Assembly (NCBI GenBank): GCA_001661245.1
Contig: KV454013.1
Span: forward strand, 501,981-565,980
Length of the DNA: 64,000 bases
Reading direction: 5' to 3'
DNA from: Pachysolen tannophilus NRRL Y-2460
Taxonomy: Eukaryota
Part shown: piece by piece, positions 42,098-56,179 of the stretch
How positions within the stretch are numbered: the stretch's first letter is position 1
How the letters are laid out: the number at the start of each line of letters is the position of its first letter
Made by a program: the position numbers and the translations under genes
Notes under the pieces: model-generated
Databases searched by the model: none
Told to the model about the DNA's origin: nothing
What the model saw: the letters and a program-made list of their open reading frames with translations, nothing else

Positions 42098-43216
42098 TTA
42101 TGCTTCAGTTGAAGAATTTGTAGAAAGCCTTCTCCATTTTAATTTCTTTGCGGCTTTTTTCCAGTTTGAATCATTATTACCATTTGCGTTTCCAATGAGA
42201 CTATTGGAATTTTTAAAAGATCCAGCAAAGATACTTCCAAGTGAAGATCTACTTGCTGAATTAATAGAAGTAACTGAAGAATTTCTAATCATGTTGGTAC
42301 TTTGAATTGGAGGAGTTTCCAAGACATCTTCAACTACACTGCTTTGTCTTTGACTATTAGTTGTTGCAATGTTACTATTTTCGCGATGGAAATTTGAGTT
42401 TATTGAAGGCACATCACTTTGTTCTTCGTTATCACTCATCAAAAATGGGAATTCGTTATCGTCATGATTTGTTGAAGATCCTGCAGTGGAATCTTCTGGT
42501 GATAAAGGTGAAATACACCTACCGTTTGGGCGTCCATTGAAAGAATGTGAATTTGATTGTGGTTGCGGCAGTTGCAGTTGCAGTTGTATTTGTAACTGTG
42601 ATTGTGATTTTGATTGTGATTGAGGTTGTGATTGTTGAGTAGAAGGAGATGCTAAATAGTAATATTCACTAATTGATTTATCTGAAGATTGTTTCTGCAA
42701 AGATTCATTATGTTCTCTTATCTTGGAAGATGTAAATTCAACATATCCATCATGTAATAAATTCACTATAACTTTTGTAGCTTCTTCTAATGCTTCATTT
42801 GTGGGTATTAAACTGGATACTAATTCATTTTTCACCGAAGATGGGAGATTAACTTCTTTTGGAGAATCTGCTTCTATAAAATTACTAGATAAAAATTTCC
42901 AACTATATTCTTTTTCAATAGGATGTGATAACTGTTGAAATCTTTCAATTTCTAAATAAAATTCCAAATTTTCAAGGCAATGACGATTTAATAAAAATTT
43001 TGCAAAATTATTTCTAGAATAAGGTGATGAAGAAGATCCCGCAAGAACAAGTTCTAACGGAGGTATTTCATCTTCTACCAAGAGCCCTCCATCCTGATAA
43101 GCCACATTTTCGTTACTCTTATTATTTAAAGTGGTTGAAGTATCCAAGGATGATGATAAAGTTGTAACTTTTGGTAGGCCAGCGTTAACATAGGACGTTG
43201 AATCCAAAAAATCCAT
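42098..43216 (-). CDS. RGS2: RGS-domain regulator of G-protein signalling (Rgs2-like)
   Basis: FAKFLLNRHCLENLEFYLEI...FIEADSPKEVNLPS RGS domain; low-complexity C-terminus. Confidence 0.75.
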   Translation of the reverse strand: MDFLDSTSYVNAGLPKVTTLSSSLDTSTTLNNKSNENVAYQDGGLLVEDEIPPLELVLAGSSSSPYSRNNFAKFLLNRHCLENLEFYLEIERFQQLSHPIEKEYSWKFLSSNFIEADSPKEVNLPSSVKNELVSSLIPTNEALEEATKVIVNLLHDGYVEFTSSKIREHNESLQKQSSDKSISEYYYLASPSTQQSQPQSQSKSQSQLQIQLQLQLPQPQSNSHSFNGRPNGRCISPLSPEDSTAGSSTNHDDNEFPFLMSDNEEQSDVPSINSNFHRENSNIATTNSQRQSSVVEDVLETPPIQSTNMIRNSSVTSINSASRSSLGSIFAGSFKNSNSLIGNANGNNDSNWKKAAKKLKWRRLSTNSSTEA

Positions 43217-44149: not shown

Positions 44150-44463
44150 NNNNNNNNNNNNNNNNNNNNNNNNNNNNNNNNNNNNNNNNNNNNNNNNNNN
44201 NNNNNNNNNNNNNNNNNNNNNNNNNNNNNNNNNNNNNNNNNNNNNNNNNNNNNNNNNNNNNNNNNNNNNNNNNNNNNNNNNNNNNNNNNNNNNNNNNNNN
44301 NNNNNNNNNNNNNNNNNNNNNNNNNNNNNNNNNNNNNNNNNNNNNNNNNNNNNNNNNNNNNNNNNNNNNNNNNNNNNNNNNNNNNNNNNNNNNNNNNNNN
44401 NNNNNNNNNNNNNNNNNNNNNNNNNNNNNNNNNNNNNNNNNNNNNNNNNNNNNNNNNNNNNNN
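44150..44463. other. Assembly gap (314 N)
   Basis: Run of n. Confidence 1.
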
Positions 44464-46555
44464 AAAAAAAAAAAAAAAAAGGTTTTGTTTTGTTTTGTTT
44501 TGTTTTTTGCCTTTTCATTTCGCGCCTAGTATTGAAAGAAAAAGAAAAAAAAAAGTGTGTATTTAACTGCCCTTGTTGGCTGTAATCCGGAGAAGTCTTG
44601 CCTCTCTCCTGATGCAAGTTGGGGAAGAATTAATAATGACTGAGGGGACGGAGATGGATTCTTACTATTAAAGTTGAACAAAAAAACAAAAGATTTAATC
44701 CAAGCCTTGTACCATGAAGATTAATTCCTACGAATTGGCTATCTGTTTTTGTTTTAAAAGTCTGTATGTTGTGTGAACCTTTTACTTTTTAGTCAGTGGT
44801 GTATTGGATCTTCATCTTTTCCCCCCCTTTGAGCCCAGCAAAAAAACAAAAAACAAAAAAAAAACTGAAGTCACCATTACGTATATCTCATTAACAAAGC
44901 ACTATTAAAGCACTGTTTCTTCTAAGAAAAGGATTATCTAAGCTTGTGGTTTTTTTCTCGAAGAGTACAAGAATCCCGGTAACTTCTAGGTTATTTAGCG
45001 CTAAAACAGCTTCTGCAAGTTTTTAACCTCCAAGAACTAAACTTTAGACTTTTTGTACCTCCCATCGCCGCAAATCGTCCAGATCAGTGTTTAAGGCGTC
45101 TCTGTCTGTTTTGTCTCTTTTGTCTATATCTCTACATAGCAATTTTTAAAGAATTTATTTATCCATTCGAATATGAGTAATTAATCAATCGTATAAATTT
45201 CCTCCTTTCTTCCCCAGATACCTATAATTCATAAATTCAGATAATATTTATTTATTAATGAACTCTGCCCCTCGGATACTTATTGTTTCGGTAAAAAAAG
45301 AAAAAAAAAATTTTTTTTCCACTAAATTTTTTAATTGGTGACACCGGTACTAAAATTGTACAATCTTCCGTTGTGGGACAGGACAAGCAGTAGTAGGCGC
45401 GAGCATGCTGTGAGCGTGCTGTAAGCATGAAGCATTAGGTACTAGTCAAACCTGCTGCACCATCCCAACAATAATATATATATTATATTTGGTCGAAACT
45501 AGACCTTGTTTGGTGGGGAAAATATCTAAAAGGGTAGTTCCAACCTGTCTGACTCTAGAGTAAAGATAAACCGATAATAATGTAATTTAATTTTGACGTT
45601 ATACAACAACTACTACTACTACTACAACTACTAATAATGCTACTACTAATACTTGAGATCTCACCAAGACATGATTGTTTTCGATTATTACACATGCCAT
45701 ATTATTACCAAGAAATTTAAACCTACTTAATGAGTCACATGCCTTATATAATTTTTAATGATTAGATAGCAAAATGTGAAACAAATTACTTTTTTTTTAT
45801 TCAATACAAAGAGATCGGTAAAAGTTTATAATGCATTGGCAAGTCTAAAATTAAAAAAAAATGACATGGAAGATGCTTCAGATACTTTCCGCTAGTTTTT
45901 TCTTTTTTTATTTTGCATTTTTGCATTTCTGCATTTTTGCATTTTTGTATTTTTTAATTCAAAAACAGGCAACCATCAAGATTAATTCAAACTTGCATAT
46001 AAAATCCGATTTTAAAGATAATAAGAAATTAACCCAAATTCAAATTTAACTCCACGGATTTTTCATGCTCAACTTTATCTTATTTTCTATATTTTCTGTA
46101 CCTTATTTGATTGATTTTTTATAATTTTTACAATATTTCAAAGTTTCTTCTTTTTTTGTTATTTGACAACTCTATAAACTACGAAAAAGAAAAAGAATAA
46201 AAGAAAACTGTTTCTTTTCTTTTTGATCAGAAATTTTCTTAGATTTGCGATATTGTAAAAACGGAGAATCCCGATTTGTTTTTTTTTTCTTTTTTTTTTT
46301 TTTTGATTTTTGCTCTTTCACAGAAAGTTCTTCGTTACCTTAAAGACAATAAAACCCTATCATCAAGATAATAGAAAAGAAACATTTGCTAGACTTTTTT
46401 TTCTTTTTCTTTTTCTTTTTAATTGAAGTTAGTTACAGCTTGAACTTAACACTAAAATTGTTTTTGACTCTAAAAAAATGAATTTTTCTTTTTAATAAAT
46501 TATACAAGCATTAAATATTACAACTATAAAGCAATCATAAAAGATCATGTTCAGG

Positions 46556-47134
46556 TCAATTGTTGTTACTTTCCCTTGCTCTTTGTTTCAATCTTTCTAA
46601 TTCATCGTTATCCCTTTGTGCACCTTTCTCAACAACTAAATTTCTTAACAATCTATTTTCCATTTCCAACTGTTGAATTCTCATTTGTAATTTATGGCTA
46701 GATTCATTCAAATCCTTAATCTTTCTTTCCATTTCTTGCTCTTTAAGTTTTTTCTTTATTCTGAATCTAGCAGAAGCAGCTGTATTTCTACGTCTTTTAT
46801 CTATGTCCACAGCGGCCCCGTTGGAGTTATTTGCACCTGAGAGTGATGACGAAGAAGATGGAGTGTCCTCTGGTGGGATTTGAATTGTACTATCTGATTT
46901 TATGGTTTCAGGACTAACTGCAACTGAATTTGTTCGGAAATTATTAGTTGAAGAAGTTTGATTTCTCAAAGGATCTGGTGATAGCATGGAATTCAGAGGT
47001 GAGGTTGATATAAATGATTGGGAGAGTGAAGAGCGTGCTTCTTGATTAGGTGCTAAAGCAGATATCACTTGTGATGGCTTAATGGTTTGATCATGTGGTT
47101 GTTGTTGTTGTTGATGCTGTTTTTGTTGTTCTTG
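46556..47134 (-). CDS. MET4: C-terminal bZIP half of a Met4/MetR-type sulfur regulator; no natural start (first in-frame ATG at 46987)
   Basis: DKRRRNTAASARFRIKKKLKEQEMERK...LEMENRLLRNLVVEK; Q-rich coding-like sequence begins abruptly at ~47134. Confidence 0.8.
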   Translation of the reverse strand, partial: QEQQKQHQQQQQPHDQTIKPSQVISALAPNQEARSSLSQSFISTSPLNSMLSPDPLRNQTSSTNNFRTNSVAVSPETIKSDSTIQIPPEDTPSSSSSLSGANNSNGAAVDIDKRRRNTAASARFRIKKKLKEQEMERKIKDLNESSHKLQMRIQQLEMENRLLRNLVVEKGAQRDNDELERLKQRARESNNN

Positions 47135-47290
47135 ATATAGAATAAAAACAAAAAAAGTTAAAATATTACAGTGATAAAATTTTCAGTTTGATTTGCAATC
47201 ATAAATGACACTTTGATAAGAGGAAAAGAATAAGTGAAAAAAAAAAAAGAACAAAAACAAAAAATCTGAATCGAGAGCTGGAAAAGAAAG

Positions 47291-48319
47291 ATGTCACTCA
47301 GTAATAATCAAGATGTTTCTTTGAATGAAAGTGGTGGTATTAATAATAATAACGACTATTCTCATGCTATGCGTCACGCCGAGGACACTACACCAGCCGC
47401 ATTATTAGAACAATTGATATACGTGGATACGTTTATGCCAGATGCTGATCCTACAACGTTAGATGAACAGTTGACAGCAGAATTAGCAGCTTTTGCTGAT
47501 GATTCGTTTATATTTCCTGATGAAGATAAACCAAAAGATCATGATGGTAATGGCAATGGATATGATTTAGGAGGTTTGGCGAAATCATCAGATCATATGA
47601 CAAATCAAAACAGCAATAAAAACAATGGGAATGATAATAATAATAATAATAATAATAATAACAGCAATAACAGCAACAACAGCAACAACAACCATGTTTT
47701 AAATAACCTTAATTTCTCAGAACAACTTCGTAATCATGATTCATTATCAAATAATAATAGTGAAAATAATAATAATAATAATTCTAATGATACAAATGCA
47801 GATGTGCTTTCACAAAGTTTGGTGACAATATTATCTTCACAAGGAAATTTCAGTAATAGTATAATAAACTCTTTATCATCAAGCTTGCTATCTGGAGTGC
47901 CCAAGGTACATGTTCCTGCTGGAGTGCAATCTACATTGGTTTCTGCAGGGTTAACACAAATACAAATAGATGCCCTTGCAGCTCTTATAGCACAGCATCA
48001 GTTAAAGAGCAACCACAATGGTGATATTTTCAACAACAATGATCTTAACGGTGGGTTTAATGCCAGTGCGGTCGATGTTTTAAGTGGCTATAGTGATAGT
48101 AGTGCTGCAAATGGTGGTGGGTTGTTAAACAATTTTACTCAACCTCTGTCCCAACAACAACAACAACAACATGTAAACCAAACAAACTTTCAGCTGCAGA
48201 GTCCTGAAAACTTACTCTCAAGTATTGTTAACTTGTTAAATAGTCAAACACATAATCAAGCACAACAAAACACGTCGTTGTCTTCTCAGGGTCAAGTTTT
48301 CGCTTTTCAACAAAAATAA
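47291..48319 (+). CDS. MET4: N-terminal activation/regulatory half of Met4, lacking the bZIP
   Basis: LLEQLIYVDTF, LDEQLTAELAAFADDSFIFPDEDKP and VPAGVQSTLVSAGLTQIQIDALAALIAQH blocks recalled from yeast Met4 proteins. Confidence 0.85.
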   Translation: MSLSNNQDVSLNESGGINNNNDYSHAMRHAEDTTPAALLEQLIYVDTFMPDADPTTLDEQLTAELAAFADDSFIFPDEDKPKDHDGNGNGYDLGGLAKSSDHMTNQNSNKNNGNDNNNNNNNNNSNNSNNSNNNHVLNNLNFSEQLRNHDSLSNNNSENNNNNNSNDTNADVLSQSLVTILSSQGNFSNSIINSLSSSLLSGVPKVHVPAGVQSTLVSAGLTQIQIDALAALIAQHQLKSNHNGDIFNNNDLNGGFNASAVDVLSGYSDSSAANGGGLLNNFTQPLSQQQQQQHVNQTNFQLQSPENLLSSIVNLLNSQTHNQAQQNTSLSSQGQVFAFQQK

Positions 48320-48356
48320 AATAGAAACTCAAATATGAAATAATAGCCAAAAAATT

Positions 48357-48534
48357 TTTTTATAAACAAATGAAAAGCTTTCAAATCTCTTATAAACTTG
48401 ATATTTCAAGAGTGAATAATTAATTATCAAGCTTTCCATCAAGAGATGAGTATTTCAATCTACCCTGTACCGTCTTGCTAAGTAAAGATAGTGTGGCACA
48501 CTAAAGAAAATTTTGCATTTGACATTTCACGTGA
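48357..48534 (-). promoter_or_regulatory. Sulfur-regulon-type promoter: Cbf1 site, Met31/32-like core, TATA-like box
   Basis: TCACGTGA 48527-48534; TGTGGC 48492-48497; TATAAAAA on the minus strand 48364-48357. Confidence 0.6.
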
Positions 48535-48732
48535 TATGGTACCATTGCGGATCAGTTTGCCTAAAGAAGAATATTGCTGTTGTGGAACACTACTTTATAT
48601 ATGTATTTTTTTTTTATTTCTGATCACCGCTTGGGTTCAGCCCGCAGCTCTTTCCGCAGGGCCGTTCGGTAGAGCGCCCGCTTCTGTTCCCTGCTAAAAG
48701 CGATGGCGGCCCGAGGGCAGAGCGATGGGTAT

Positions 48733-48773
48733 AGTAGTTAAGTAGTAGTAGCAGTAGTAGTAGTAGTAGTAGC

Positions 48774-48803
<30 letters not shown>
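48733..48803. repeat. (GTA)n microsatellite
   Basis: Tandem agt/gta units with a few gca variants. Confidence 0.9.
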
Positions 48804-48804
<1 letters not shown>

Positions 48805-48997
48805 TTTAAATTATTGTCTTAGACAAAAATTATATAAAATGATAACTGAAATCAATAAGCCAAGAGAAAACGCAAAGATGAATATATAGATCCTGTGTAA
48901 AAACACAGTACGTAATTAAAAGAAAAAAAGAAAATAAATATATAAATTATCAGTTAATAGATTAAAAATTAAATCTAATTTCCTCTTGTGTGTAACC

Positions 48998-50635
48998 CTA
49001 GTTCTTTGGTTTAGGGCTTATGCGCTTGAGTTGATCAACATAGTTTGCAGTATCTTCTGCTCTTCTTCTACCATCGACGTACAGCATCATTTCACCATAG
49101 GATTCAGGGAAAACTGAACAGTAGCCTGGATTATCGTACGCAACATGGTCTCTAGGAACGAAAAATGAATAGACAAAAGTACCACTCTCTGTAAGTTTCT
49201 TGCTGTCCAAGGTTCTAATGCCAGTATCCACTTGTACCTGAACTAAAGTTCCAGGTGACGATAAGAAATCTTTTTCATCTGTTGAGAGTCTATTTGCTGA
49301 CGGCAAGTCAAAATCTCCCAATTCTTTAATTTTCTTTACAGATTCAGCTGCTTCATCACTTTCATGAATATGTTCAGTATAACATACTGAGGCCTTCATA
49401 TATAATACAGATCCAACAGGTACTGGTGCTTTGAAAGTCGTTGAATCCAAAGAGACAAATCTTGGTGGAGCTCTTGCAAAAGCAGCAGAAGTACAATAAG
49501 CTAATTCAAACGTTTGACGTAACAAGTAACCACCAAATATCATATAAGAATGTCTATTTCTATATTGTGGTTGCATGAAAAGTGTTGAATAACTATAAGT
49601 ATCTTTCATAAGAATTAAATTCTGAGGTTTTTCTGGGCCCAATTTTTCAATACTCTTAGAACTTATCCACATCTTGTGAATTAATTTAGATTCTTCATTT
49701 GTTGGAGGGACTTTATCTAAAGTTTCCAATTTTGCTCTCAATTTCTTTGATGCATTATGAGATTCTGCTCTTCTGTAATCAATCCATTCAGGTTCAGTTA
49801 CAGGTAAAAGACGATTAATTGGGAAAGATTTATGTGTCTCTGGGTTACGAGCAACAAATGTAAAATTTGCTGTTAAAAAACAATTATCCAGAGGTAAATC
49901 TGATTCTTTAAAATTTTCTGGTAATTTACTTTCAAAAGCATAACCTTTAACTGAAATTTCCATCGATGACCTACCTGTCCAAGTAACACTTCCAGCCAAT
50001 AAGAAATTATAATTTTCAATTTCATCAACTTTCTTAACCATATAGATTCTATCAACAGATGCAGTAACATTAACTGGTTCAGCAGGAGCACAATGTCTAT
50101 ACGCAATTCTTCCAGCTAAGGCATCCAAATCTTGGAATAATTGACCAACTCTTAATCTACCAAAAGCATTAATATATCCATCCCTCAACATGGGATCATC
50201 TTTAAACGGTAAATTCAAATAACAAAAAGAATCCAGTCTAGTTTTTTCTCCAATAACATAAGTCTTTGAAGTTCTATATGCATAAGAATCTAAAGTCTTT
50301 CCCTGAGCTAATTGTATCTCTCTTTCTTTCAACGCCTCTAACCATGTAACTTTATTTGGTGGTGTCTTGTGTTCTTGCATAGATTGAAATAATGTTCTTT
50401 GTGGTTCCATACTTTCTGCTAATATAGTCGCAGTAGCATCAGCTGCCTCTGAAGCATCATTCGAACCAGGTTGAGTATCTGGTCTATGGAAATTTTTTGG
50501 CTTCTCTTTAATCTCGCTATCAGCATCTTTAGAAGGTGTTGATATAGTAGAATTAAACCTCGATAAATAATAACCCGAATAAGAACTACGCATCAATCTT
50601 TGAGCATTCTGGCTCAAAAATGTAGTTCTTAACAT
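48998..50635 (-). CDS. Mitochondrial double-hotdog acyl-CoA thioesterase (ACOT9-like)
   Basis: GRLRVGQLFQDLDALAG, VTASVDRI, VTWTGRSSMEI, IFGGYLLRQTFELAY, FKAPVPVGS. Confidence 0.88.
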   Translation of the reverse strand: MLRTTFLSQNAQRLMRSSYSGYYLSRFNSTISTPSKDADSEIKEKPKNFHRPDTQPGSNDASEAADATATILAESMEPQRTLFQSMQEHKTPPNKVTWLEALKEREIQLAQGKTLDSYAYRTSKTYVIGEKTRLDSFCYLNLPFKDDPMLRDGYINAFGRLRVGQLFQDLDALAGRIAYRHCAPAEPVNVTASVDRIYMVKKVDEIENYNFLLAGSVTWTGRSSMEISVKGYAFESKLPENFKESDLPLDNCFLTANFTFVARNPETHKSFPINRLLPVTEPEWIDYRRAESHNASKKLRAKLETLDKVPPTNEESKLIHKMWISSKSIEKLGPEKPQNLILMKDTYSYSTLFMQPQYRNRHSYMIFGGYLLRQTFELAYCTSAAFARAPPRFVSLDSTTFKAPVPVGSVLYMKASVCYTEHIHESDEAAESVKKIKELGDFDLPSANRLSTDEKDFLSSPGTLVQVQVDTGIRTLDSKKLTESGTFVYSFFVPRDHVAYDNPGYCSVFPESYGEMMLYVDGRRRAEDTANYVDQLKRISPKPKN

Positions 50636-51151: not shown

Positions 51152-53956
51152 TCAATTATCGGCGTTTTCTATTTCGCCCTCGTTGGATACTCTGTCGTCT
51201 CCAAAATTTGGTTCGTGACTGGAAGTACGTCCTCTATGGCTAAATTCTACCAAGCGTGCTTTTGCTGTTGTAGAGATTGCCGATATTCCTCCTGATAAAT
51301 CTGTGTATCGACTTGAATCCAGCCATGATTCTGATGTAGTGTTGATATTGGTGGTGCTGTTATTGTGAATTGTGTCTGGGTTACTCAGGTTTCTGAGAGA
51401 AGCATTTGCTGGGGATTCGAAATTAAATCCACCTTCTTCTGTACCGGTTCTATTAGCTGTTGCTGAGAATGTATTTTCATTAACATGATCCCATCTTAAA
51501 TCACCATTGGAGGTTTGTGTTGGTCTGAATTCATCTCCTATTGATGTGCCATCTGAAGAAAATGCATTTGTTGATGTTGAAGTAGACATATCATTTGCAG
51601 ATGTGGAATGTCCTATATCATTTTTAGAGGCTCCATTGCTGTTATAATAGTTATCTTGTAAAGAAAAATGTTCAGGTCCTAATGATCTTGGATGATGTTC
51701 TTCATGTAAGATATCTAAATTTTTAGGTGCTTGGAAATATCTTGAAGAAGATCTGTTATTATAATTACTATTGTTATCGACAATTCTTGGTTCAACTAAT
51801 GAATTTTCACTTTTAGGATTATTCATTGATATCACATTGTTGTCGCTATCCAATCTTTGGAAATTACCACTTCCTGAATCTTTTGTTAATACAGAGGATG
51901 TCGTAGATCCCAACATATCTCCCGATTTTCTATATGCTAATATATTTGATTGTTGAGATTTTCTTTTGAAATCATCATCTACCACTCTCACACTGTACAA
52001 TTCATTTGTCGCCACAGTAGCTATTGAGTTGAGAGAATTTCTTGATTTCCATAGCTCATCATTTCTTCTCCAAGATCTACGAGGAATTTCGTGTTTATTA
52101 CCATTGCCATCATGATGATGATCATGAACCAACAGATCAGAGCTATATGTCTGCATTGCATCTTGATATATGGAAGAATCTTCAATGTTTGTAGATCCTG
52201 ATTCATCGCTCTCACTTCCATAATCTAATTTCTCCAAATTTAAAACATTCAATGCTGATAGTCTCTTGGCATCTTCATCTGCATCATCTTCAACATCAGT
52301 GATGCTACGTGTAGCTGATCTGTTATTTGGATTGTTCGAAGGATTACCCAAAATTGGTCCAGAAATTGATTTTGGTGATTTTTCTTGATCCAGATCTGAG
52401 TCTCTGCGACGTTTCCAATAGCAAAAATAAAATACAAGCAGAATAATAGTAAGTGTAACAACTGGAACTACTACTCCAACCGCAATAGCAACTGTTTTCT
52501 TCTTGTTGCTGGAAGCAGATTTGCTAGAATCCAAATTTCCTGCTGCTGTAGTAGATGACGAATTACCTGTAGTAGCGGTTGCTGATGAAGTTTTTGAAGA
52601 ACTTTGAGAACTAGTAGCAGCTGAAGATGATGACAGTGACGGTGAGCTTGAAGTTTTAGACTTCAGTACGCCTGAGATCTCAAAAGAGAGTGAATCAGTT
52701 AAACTTCCTCTAGTTGCTGTAATTTCAACCTCAAGGCTATCCAAGTCGGTTGGAGTGGATCCAGTAAAGGTCAAATTTGAAGTATGAAAATCTAACCAAC
52801 TAGTTTCATTACCATCAAAGCTAGCTGATAAATCTGTATTATTTAAGTCTGTGAAATCTGTCTTTGGTAGCGTATATTCAAAATATTCGCCTCTTGTAGC
52901 GTTAACATCAGATAGATCACTGACTGTAAATAAGGAATCTTCAACATCTAATTTGAATTGTATGGCAATAGTATTTCCAAATACATCTTCTATTGTGATA
53001 TTGAAATAATCAACTTCGTCATCATCTGCAGTGTCCGGAATTGTTCCTGATAAAAATTCTTCATCTAATGATAACCATGAAGGAGCACCTTCTAAAGTCA
53101 AAGAAGAAATATTAGATGAAGAGATTTCTTTACCATCTAAGTAAACATCTGATAATGGCAACGTGTAATTGACTGTCTCATCTACGGTTCCATTCAACAC
53201 AATAGTACTTGATAAGCTCGTACTTAATTGGTGAGCACCAACAATTAATTTAAAAGTACCAATACATCCGGAAAAGTCAACGTAATCAGTAGCAATCAAT
53301 AAAAATCCATATTCAAAACTTGGTGCAATATCAGAGTTAACTGCAGGTGCAGTTCCTGAAAATGTTAAAGTATCGGAATCAAATTGGATCCAACTTGGCA
53401 ACGGAGTTGCATCTGATGATCTTCCGTAATATGCAACGATAGAGTTACTCGAATCTGAAGGAACTTCGAATATACTCATTGAGAAATTAAGATTGAAAGT
53501 TTGACCTGGTGCAAGAACCAATCCATCGTAACCATTTGTATCTCCAAAAGACGATAGTTCGGTGAATATAATATCAGATGATTTCAACTCAGGTGCTGGA
53601 TCTGTGGAAACAACTAATGTATAGTCTTCAGATATATTACCAGTAGAATCGTAACCAATAAGTGTTATGGTAAGATTATCGGTTGCATCTGAAGTTGAAG
53701 GAGTTCCTAAAAAAGTTCTACTTGAACTATCAAATGAGAGCCAGCTTGGTAAGTCAGACGCATCAAATGTAACAGTACTGTCATTCGATAAAAAAGTTTC
53801 GTTGCTTATTGTGAAAGAGTAACTCTCTTCAGTTCTTGCTACTAATGGTAATTGCTCATCAAAGGGAAACCCGACATAAGGAGTAGCTATGACCAATAAA
53901 GAGTTCAAGTACAACAACGCTATTGTCGGAAGATACGAGAAATTATTTATTTTCAT
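51152..53956 (-). CDS. AXL2: Axial budding membrane glycoprotein (cadherin-like repeats)
   Basis: Signal peptide, PYVGFPFDEQLPLVAR, LPSWLSFDSSSRTF repeats, Ser/Thr stalk, TM VAIAVGVVVPV, KSISGP. Confidence 0.94.
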   Translation of the reverse strand: MKINNFSYLPTIALLYLNSLLVIATPYVGFPFDEQLPLVARTEESYSFTISNETFLSNDSTVTFDASDLPSWLSFDSSSRTFLGTPSTSDATDNLTITLIGYDSTGNISEDYTLVVSTDPAPELKSSDIIFTELSSFGDTNGYDGLVLAPGQTFNLNFSMSIFEVPSDSSNSIVAYYGRSSDATPLPSWIQFDSDTLTFSGTAPAVNSDIAPSFEYGFLLIATDYVDFSGCIGTFKLIVGAHQLSTSLSSTIVLNGTVDETVNYTLPLSDVYLDGKEISSSNISSLTLEGAPSWLSLDEEFLSGTIPDTADDDEVDYFNITIEDVFGNTIAIQFKLDVEDSLFTVSDLSDVNATRGEYFEYTLPKTDFTDLNNTDLSASFDGNETSWLDFHTSNLTFTGSTPTDLDSLEVEITATRGSLTDSLSFEISGVLKSKTSSSPSLSSSSAATSSQSSSKTSSATATTGNSSSTTAAGNLDSSKSASSNKKKTVAIAVGVVVPVVTLTIILLVFYFCYWKRRRDSDLDQEKSPKSISGPILGNPSNNPNNRSATRSITDVEDDADEDAKRLSALNVLNLEKLDYGSESDESGSTNIEDSSIYQDAMQTYSSDLLVHDHHHDGNGNKHEIPRRSWRRNDELWKSRNSLNSIATVATNELYSVRVVDDDFKRKSQQSNILAYRKSGDMLGSTTSSVLTKDSGSGNFQRLDSDNNVISMNNPKSENSLVEPRIVDNNSNYNNRSSSRYFQAPKNLDILHEEHHPRSLGPEHFSLQDNYYNSNGASKNDIGHSTSANDMSTSTSTNAFSSDGTSIGDEFRPTQTSNGDLRWDHVNENTFSATANRTGTEEGGFNFESPANASLRNLSNPDTIHNNSTTNINTTSESWLDSSRYTDLSGGISAISTTAKARLVEFSHRGRTSSHEPNFGDDRVSNEGEIENADN

Positions 53957-54841: not shown

Positions 54842-56179
54842 TCAGTTTTCTTTTGCGGCTGGTAACTGTATAGTTACTGATTTATCATTAAGCCTATGTG
54901 TAGTTGTGGCTATAAACGTAGAATCATTTTGATTATCATTTTCTGACCTAAGATGTGCTTCTTGCCACCAGCTACTATTTTTTATCTCTTGTTCTAAATC
55001 GATAGATCCCCCACTTGAAAATAATTCGTTTTCTGATGAACTATCAATTTCGTGAGCTTGTACAGAAGTGGGTGTTTGTTTATCATCACTTGGTGAATTG
55101 CCTCTGTTTTCAGTGTCACTCATATTCTTATATTTTTCTGGATAAAGCGAATAAGACATGTTTGTCTTTGTATAACCTTTCTCTATCTCGCCAATGGATG
55201 ATGCGTATAATGTTGAGCCTCCACCATTACTGGTTGGACAAGATGCTGCAGAAGATGACAGTCCTGAGTGAGATTTTTCAAGAAATGGTGTTTGAGTAGT
55301 AATCGTTGGAACATTACTTGAATTATTTGCTGAAGAAGCCCACATTGACGATAAGGGTAATTGTAAAGTTACCAATAATATTGAGACAGCAGTTAAACGT
55401 GAATGAGCAAGATTTTTTGTGCTATGACTTACCATTACAACCACCGCTGGAATTATCATTGTTTGACTTGACATTATAAATAAAATGTGTAAGGTTCCAA
55501 ATTGTTTAAGACCCAAATAACGTCTTGATCTAATTGCTAACCCTAACTTAATGACTAAGATAAGACAACTGTAAACGACTGAAGCTGAAAAGATATACAT
55601 TGGGTAATTAGATAAAACTACTCCAACACTCACATCACTATAAAGTGAAATTATAGAACGAACACATGCAGCAAAATAAAAGCCTAAAGTTGTTAAACCT
55701 AATGCAGCAGAAGTTAAAGTAAGTAATAATCCAATTTTGCGAACTTCTGGTGATTTGAAAACAACTCTAACTTGAAACGTTAATGAACTCTCAATACATG
55801 CAATAAGTAAGACTTGTAATATATCCGCACAAATACTGGTTCTATAATCATCTCCTGTTAAGTTTCCAAATGAAGTAAAATAATATGTAGCAGAATTAAA
55901 ACCACCAAGAAGAAAATGGATATAAAGTGATGAATGCATTATAAGGAAAAACAACGACAATTCATTTAATATGAAAACTGGTGTTTTACGATTCTTTGTT
56001 AATAATCTCAAGATTAAAAACATTAATCCTGCACAACCAACTCTGCAACCATAAATCACTGCAAGACTAATATTTGAAGAAACAAAAGATTCAATATCTT
56101 TAAATGTTATTTCTGTTTCCCCATACAGGGAAATAAAAGATAATTCTTGTGTTTCCGGGTCAAAACTTGATGAACTCAT
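54842..56179 (-). CDS. STE2: Alpha-factor pheromone receptor (fungal class D GPCR)
   Basis: Seven TM segments; RKTPVFILN, AIRSRRYLGLKQF, HILFIMSSQT, LPLSSMWA. Confidence 0.96.
   Translation of the reverse strand: MSSSSFDPETQELSFISLYGETEITFKDIESFVSSNISLAVIYGCRVGCAGLMFLILRLLTKNRKTPVFILNELSLFFLIMHSSLYIHFLLGGFNSATYYFTSFGNLTGDDYRTSICADILQVLLIACIESSLTFQVRVVFKSPEVRKIGLLLTLTSAALGLTTLGFYFAACVRSIISLYSDVSVGVVLSNYPMYIFSASVVYSCLILVIKLGLAIRSRRYLGLKQFGTLHILFIMSSQTMIIPAVVVMVSHSTKNLAHSRLTAVSILLVTLQLPLSSMWASSANNSSNVPTITTQTPFLEKSHSGLSSSAASCPTSNGGGSTLYASSIGEIEKGYTKTNMSYSLYPEKYKNMSDTENRGNSPSDDKQTPTSVQAHEIDSSSENELFSSGGSIDLEQEIKNSSWWQEAHLRSENDNQNDSTFIATTTHRLNDKSVTIQLPAAKEN

What the first reader, a model, noticed from the sequence alone, without database searches (positions are those of the whole stretch)
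46556..48319. MET4 split into two oppositely oriented halves by a ~1.17 kb internal inversion
Seen: the + ORF 47291-48319 has Met4 N-terminal blocks but no bZIP. The - frame ~47134-46556 has a Met4/MetR-type bZIP but no ATG before 46987, and it opens abruptly in a poly-Gln tract. The two diverge only ~155 bp apart. Known: these parts normally form one polypeptide. Inference: reversing ~47131-48296 gives a single in-frame ORF of 526 aa (335+191; ...SSQGQ|EQQKQHQQQ...) on the minus strand. Three explanations remain open: (a) a reversible ON/OFF inversion controlling sulfur assimilation, which would be highly unusual outside yeast MAT loci; (b) a fixed inversion or gene fission; (c) a local misassembly. 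The sequence alone cannot separate them.
Basis: partly seen in the sequence, partly recalled or inferred. Interest (0 to 1): 0.92.

Follow-up and report, generated by a model that had tools for sequence, protein, structure and literature searches.

The report
Assembly flip splits yeast MET4 gene
The yeast sulfur-regulator gene MET4 looks cut in two here, but public sequencing data join its start to its promoter the normal way round, so this is most likely a flipped piece in the genome assembly and not a genetic switch.

Summary
The split is in the window: a + strand ORF (47291-48319) carries the Met4 N-terminal blocks, and a - strand frame (46556-47182) carries its bZIP. Of 90 relatives, 84 hold both parts in one chain. 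Read-derived contigs contradict the window. In 3 of 4 runs laid (one sample), a single 1-kb contig runs from 48720 down to 48297 and on into 47150-47620, the intact orientation. The fourth run, from another study, shows the same geometry but with only 23 letters on one side. No repeat fit for a flip/flop switch flanks the block (longest 9 bp, chance level). The joint inside the coding sequence was not covered, and contigs drop rare variants, so a private or minority inversion is not strictly excluded. The scan had not noted MET4 before, but unchecked notes report similar small flips in four other genes of this assembly (ADE2, REG1, RPS22, a zinc-finger factor). Verdict: most likely misassembly (about 0.88) of an ordinary MET4; low interest.

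The parts
47137..48296 (.). Block that lies reversed in the window (best-fit ends, 1160 bp, blunt, no shared bases at the ends)
   Evidence: Right end from contigs stopping at 48297 in 4 of 4 runs. Left end inferred: the only model of 547 that stops at 48297, has 12-15 letters up to 47150 and keeps the frame; needs one more homopolymer letter than the window has.
47291..48296 (+). MET4 coding sequence, N-terminal 335 codons
   Evidence: on record as the 342-aa protein P0001, read with CTG = Ala
47384..47542 (+). Conserved Met4 N-terminal block (residues 32-84; activation/ubiquitin-binding region by inference)
   Evidence: 81% identical to P0002, 71% to the Komagataella protein named MET4 (P0019)
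47891..47992 (+). Second conserved Met4 block (about residues 201-234)
   Evidence: Aligned to P0019 and P0002; its identity as the INT region is recalled, not tested
48297..48319 (+). Short read-through tail and stop of the 342-aa ORF; by the contigs this is promoter DNA, not coding
46556..47136 (-). MET4 coding sequence, C-terminal part (Gln/Ser-rich linker, bZIP, stop)
46658..46801 (-). bZIP_2 domain with an unbroken basic region
   Evidence: PF07716, E 8.4e-11; 69 of 81 residues identical to P0002 over the wider bZIP region
47137..47290 (+). 5' leader and proximal promoter, carried inside the reversed block
   Evidence: Joined to 48297 in contigs
48297..48997 (-). Upstream region of MET4 in the intact orientation
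   Evidence: holds the window's only TCACGTG site
48527..48534 (.). Cbf1-type E-box TCACGTGA, about 385 bp upstream of the ATG in the intact orientation
   Evidence: motif as in PMC11502921 (passages); weak, about one such site is expected per window

Best explanation
The organism has one ordinary, intact MET4 on the - strand, of about 528 codons, with its promoter in 48297-48997. It should work like Met4 of Ogataea, Komagataella and Candida: N-terminal activation and regulatory blocks and a C-terminal bZIP in one chain that switches on sulfur-assimilation genes. The assembly from which the window comes holds about 1160 bp (47137-48296: leader plus 335 codons) reversed, and a truncated 342-aa protein was annotated from it. 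Shown: the halves belong to one Met4; contigs join 48297 to the DNA just before 47150. Inferred: the coding-side joint, the exact left end, the length of 528 aa, and that the flip arose during assembly (a small piece placed backwards, or a library chimera) rather than in the sequenced cells.
For: table 8: X1, X2, X3 each have one contig of 1000-1001 letters with 48297-48720 on the - strand (record 51-475) and 47150-47620 on the + strand (record 490-962), no other letters, 14 letters apart. X5 (other sample and study) has the same two pieces 14 letters apart in one 512-letter record. That contig ends only at the (AGT)n and (AAT)n repeats, so it runs through the joint unbroken. The same contigs have 2 and 1 more letters than the window in the two covered stretches, so the window has other small errors here. 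84 of 90 relatives hold both parts, N before C in 84 of 84. The best-fit flip keeps the frame with no base lost. The window's only Cbf1 box falls upstream of the ATG only in the intact orientation (weak). [quoted passage not shown]
Against: The tool listed no joint in its own joints table and says that it dropped one joint row at skipped repeats, where most rows are false; my reading rests on the table of pieces. X1-X3 are one sample, and X5 has only 23 aligned letters on the short side, under the tool's 31-letter rule. The 14 letters between the pieces were not printed; the best model predicts 13. No full-length protein of this species was found in the protein collection. I do not know whether any laid run is the DNA that the window was assembled from, so a real inversion private to that culture remains possible. 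In C. parapsilosis met4 loss alone does not cause auxotrophy, which weakens the growth argument.
Confidence: 0.88

Rival explanations
1. A real, one-off inversion private to the culture or clone that was assembled (two breaks rejoined blunt), giving a met4 null or weak allele, while other cultures are intact.
For: The window has both joints without N and loses no base under the best model; the split is in the deposited record, since P0001 equals the window's ORF with its read-through tail. The source of the assembly is not known to be among the runs laid.
Against: Both samples examined (S1, S2) give the intact promoter-side joint. Unchecked scan notes list like flips in ADE2, REG1, RPS22 and a zinc-finger gene of the same assembly; five damaging inversions in one growing clone are harder to accept than one recurring assembly fault (inference).
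Confidence: 0.07
2. A reversible ON/OFF inversion: most cells hold intact MET4, a minority hold the split OFF state, and the assembler took the minority form.
For: The flip is base-perfect and would switch Met4 off. Contigs drop rare variants. P. tannophilus inverts its MAT region (PMC6692504, passages).
Against: That MAT switch uses 2-kb inverted repeats. Here the longest inverted match near the ends is 9 bp, reached by 298 of 1976 control pairs, and neither 9-bp pair nor the 5-bp pair sits at the joint that the contigs define. The best-fit ends share no base, so there is nothing for a recombinase or for homologous recombination to act on. The 1-kb contigs do not break at the joint.
Confidence: 0.02
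3. A gene fission fixed in the species: an activation-domain protein and a short Met28-like bZIP protein made from two divergent genes.
For: Both frames are open; the bZIP half has an ATG at 46987 that would give 143 aa; short bZIP-only Met28 proteins exist in yeasts.
Against: Contigs of two samples show the intact promoter-side joint. The bZIP is the Met4 type: 17 of the 20 closest bZIP matches also carry the first N-terminal block. 49 Gln/Ser-rich codons stay open upstream of that ATG with no sign of decay.
Confidence: 0.01

Closest known systems
Met4 of Komagataella, Ogataea, Kuraishia and Candida (canonical-bZIP type; MetR/Cys3 in filamentous fungi)
   Same: Same two N-terminal blocks and same bZIP, in the same order once the block is turned; basic region unbroken, unlike S. 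cerevisiae Met4 (PMC11502921).
   Different: Longer (about 528 aa against 325-413 for most of the closest hits) through Asn, Gln and Ser runs; split only in this assembly.
FF1 flip/flop mating-type switch (Ogataea polymorpha, Ascoidea rubescens, Pachysolen tannophilus)
   Same: An inverted chromosome segment in a yeast of the same code clade.
   Different: FF1 uses long inverted repeats (2 kb in P. tannophilus and A. rubescens) and moves whole genes; here there is no repeat above chance, the ends cut a coding sequence, and only one orientation was seen in read-derived contigs.
Local mis-orientation of a short segment in a draft assembly
   Same: Short block, base-perfect, contradicted by read-derived contigs, beside homopolymer shortfalls and 2.1 kb from a 314-N gap.
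   Different: No N and no repeat at the two ends, so the step that made it is not evident from the sequence.

Membership tests
Met4 (canonical-bZIP type) | Conserved N-terminal activation/ubiquitin-binding region | tested here: met
   Residues 32-84: 71% identical to P0019, named MET4 by its source, 81% to P0002. Met by homology; the sub-domain names were not mapped.
Met4 (canonical-bZIP type) | C-terminal bZIP of the Met4 rather than the Met28 type, basic region without insertion | tested here: met
   PF07716; same top hit as the N half; 17 of the top 20 bZIP matches among 245 proteins carry the N block. No tree was built.
Met4 (canonical-bZIP type) | All domains in one polypeptide | tested here: inconclusive
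   Not so in the window. Contigs restore the promoter-side joint, which implies the intact chain, but the coding-side joint was not covered and no full-length protein was found.
Met4 (canonical-bZIP type) | Activates sulfur-assimilation genes; deletion usually gives methionine auxotrophy | not testable with these tools
   Feature from PMC11502921, section 8.
FF1 flip/flop invertible region | Long inverted repeat flanking the invertible segment | tested here: not met
   Longest inverted match within about 60 bp of the ends is 9 bp; 298 of 1976 control pairs reach that.
FF1 flip/flop invertible region | Both orientations present in cells | tested here: inconclusive
   Only the intact joint appears in the 4 runs laid; contigs drop rare variants.
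FF1 flip/flop invertible region | Inversion inducible by starvation | not testable with these tools
   Feature from PMC6692504.
Site-specific invertase switch (fim/hin type; features recalled, from no call) | Short inverted recombination sites exactly at the two break points | tested here: not met
   The 9-bp pairs (47120/48316, 47121/48270) and 5-bp pairs (47131/48296, 47145/48300) predict contig ends other than the observed 48297 with 14 letters to 47150; the best-fit ends share no base.
Site-specific invertase switch (fim/hin type; features recalled, from no call) | A dedicated recombinase gene | not tested
   No whole genome is held; only 5 of the window's proteins were scanned with Pfam.

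The most novel reading that the evidence does not exclude
The split form is a real minority state: this yeast, which (if it is P. tannophilus) already inverts its MAT region, also turns 0.5-1.2-kb blocks inside MET4 and other genes without flanking repeats, making rare loss-of-function cells, and the assembly caught that state while read-derived contigs show only the majority.
Probability: 0.03. Interest if true: 0.85.

Novelty: not a real feature. Interest (0 to 1): 0.08.

Why it matters
As biology it matters little: an ordinary MET4. As curation it has some value. The public record holds a 342-aa Met4 without its bZIP, and the bZIP half was not found as a protein in the collection, so comparative work on the sulfur regulon would score this species wrongly. 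It also bears on the scan's other notes of small gene-splitting flips in this assembly, some of them left undecided: here read-derived contigs speak against one such flip, which lowers the prior for the others. Had the switch been real, it would be an invertible metabolic ON/OFF control in a eukaryote.

Tried and rejected
Whole genome: none held, so no genome-wide count of flips and no search for a second MET4 or for MET28. No RNA holder listed; this says nothing on expression. In one search, 45960-47142 and 47621-48296 had no cover in any of the 4 runs (11 of 30 bins covered); the tool says that a filter leaves records out, so the holes are no evidence, and the coding-side joint stays unseen. 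4 of 7 listed runs were laid: X4 (same sample as X1-X3), X6 and X7 (share 0.00) were not. The 18-21-letter matches of 13.6-kb records at 47143-47163 and 47518-47535 were set aside as chance. Contig depths were not used to bound a minority form, since the tool says that depth is no share of cells. Three protein searches for a full-length or joint-spanning protein of this species found none. Two scans of metagenome contigs found nothing, so no synteny check. The TGTGGC motif is at chance level (11 found, 11.85 expected) and is not counted. The model 47135-48297 gives exactly 14 letters but breaks the frame (358 aa, no bZIP) and was ranked below 47137-48296. Six relatives matched the N half only (P0022, P0048, P0053, P0080, P0089, P0090); not followed up. 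The inverted (TAC)n/(AGT)n pair at 45601-45653 and 48741-48805 does not lie at the break points. Paper searches for a split Met4 or small inversions in this yeast's assembly listed nothing on the point; no supplements were read.

Full report
Observation. The layout is as described. The + ORF 47291-48319 gives 342 aa with no Pfam family and no basic-region motif. The - frame 46556-47182 is open from stop to stop, has its first ATG at 46987 and holds bZIP_2 at residues 112-159 counted from 47134 (E 8.4e-11). Searched apart, both halves have the same best relative, P0002, and cover it end to end without overlap: N half 32-320 on 22-282, C half 75-188 on 297-411. Of the 90 other proteins found with the N half, 84 also match the bZIP half, with the N part first in 84 of 84; 6 match the N half only. 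One of the 84 is named MET4 by its source (P0019, Komagataella). Among 245 fetched proteins, 17 of the 20 best bZIP matches carry the first N block, so the bZIP is that of Met4 and not of a short Met28-like paralog. These are two halves of one MET4.

Organism. The window's own protein is on record (P0001, on a 1.75-Mb contig) and equals the ORF read with table 26: both CTG codons are Ala. In the window's urea amidolyase three CTG codons align with Met, Ala and Pro of the solved relative, none with Leu or Ser (a small sample). The CUG-Ala clade holds Pachysolen, Nakazawaea and Peterozyma (PMC5951914, passages). An earlier, unchecked scan note calls this genome P. tannophilus; I use the name only conditionally. 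P0001 ends with the read-through tail beyond 48296, so the split is in the deposited record itself.

The ends cannot be read from the frame.

Reads. One search listed 7 runs, 5 holding 0.96 of the sampled words (2 samples, 2 studies). I laid 4 of them on 45960-48720; all are contigs. In X1, X2 and X3 (one sample) a single record of 1000-1001 letters lies on 48297-48720 on the - strand (record 51-475) and on 47150-47620 on the + strand (record 490-962), with no other letters and 14 letters between the pieces. So the DNA that the window puts behind the N half lies in front of it: the intact orientation. The record's ends map into the (AGT)n repeat near 48770 and the (AAT)n repeat near 47658, the expected places for a contig to stop; it does not stop at the joint. 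In X5 (other sample and study) a 512-letter record holds 47150-47172 (-) and 48297-48720 (+), again 14 letters apart; 23 letters are under the tool's 31-letter rule for a bridge, though the next record overlaps it by 30 letters if colinear (my inference). Limits: the joints table is empty, the tool having dropped one joint row at skipped repeats; the 14 letters were not printed; the bZIP side and 47621-48296 had no cover; contigs drop rare variants.

Ends. Neither fits. Of four models that stop at 48297 with 12-15 letters between, only 47137-48296 keeps the frame: 528 aa (335 codons, an Asp codon formed at the joint, 192 codons), with 13 letters between. One more A in the run at 47150-47156 would give 14 and would explain why the alignments start at 47150 (inference). 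The contigs do have 2 and 1 more letters than the window in the two covered stretches, so short homopolymers are a fault of this assembly here. These best-fit ends share no base.

Switch test. The flip/flop MAT region of P. tannophilus is 8 kb between 2-kb inverted repeats and inverts on nitrogen depletion (PMC6692504, passages). At MET4 the longest inverted match near the ends is 9 bp; 298 of 1976 control pairs as far apart reach that, and neither 9-bp pair lies at the joint that the contigs define. There is no substrate for recombination.

Lesser support. The window's only TCACGTG site (48527-48534; about 1.3 matches expected), the Cbf1 motif of sulfur-regulon promoters (PMC11502921, passages), lies about 385 bp upstream of the ATG in the intact orientation and between two converging gene ends in the window's. 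[quoted passage not shown] That sulfate is the sulfur source of this medium is my own knowledge. Earlier scan notes, which I did not check, describe flips of about 0.5-1.1 kb in REG1, RPS22, ADE2 and a zinc-finger gene of the same assembly; none concerns MET4.

How it most likely works. In the cell: one intact MET4 on the - strand, transcribed from 48297-48997, making a Met4 with activation blocks and a canonical bZIP, as in Ogataea and Komagataella. In the record: a block of about 1160 bp placed backwards during assembly (0.88). A real inversion private to the assembled culture (0.07), a reversible minority state (0.02) and a fixed fission (0.01) are the rivals. The searches (listings and abstract starts) showed no paper on a split MET4 or on such flips in this yeast; most subscription papers are outside the library, and no supplements were read.

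Verdict. Interest 0.08.

Noticed in passing
window 47237-47248 and 48297-48720: Contigs have 2 more letters than the window in 47150-47620 (by overlap geometry in the 12-A run at 47237-47248) and 1 more in 48297-48720: the assembly seems to shorten homopolymers, so frameshifts at such runs in this genome deserve distrust.
   Followed up: partly
window 44150-44463: A gap of 314 N lies 2.1 kb from the MET4 stop codon.
   Followed up: no
window 45601-45653 and 48741-48805: A (TAC)n run and an (AGT)n run, about 85% complementary over 53 bases, bracket the whole MET4 locus 3.1 kb apart; they are not at the break points.
   Followed up: partly
window 46556-46987 (-): No near-identical protein for the bZIP half was found at 114-2000 residues, while the truncated N half is on record as P0001: the annotation seems to hold Met4 without its bZIP.
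   Followed up: partly
window 32007-31911 (-): The CCT2 (TCP1-beta) gene seems to have a first exon of ATG alone and an intron of about 94 bases starting GTAAGT, without an exact TACTAAC branch point.
   Followed up: partly
window 48487-48534: A TGTGGC site and the Cbf1 box lie about 35 bases apart upstream of intact MET4, as would suit feedback control of MET4 by its own regulon; the first motif is at chance level.
   Followed up: partly
window 42098-43216, 48998-50635, 51152-53956, 54842-56179 (all -): Neighbours: an RGS-domain gene, a thioesterase (4HBT), an Ig-repeat membrane protein (RAX1-like and AXL2-like by recall) and an STE2-like ORF judged only by eye; all on the - strand, as intact MET4 would be.
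   Followed up: no
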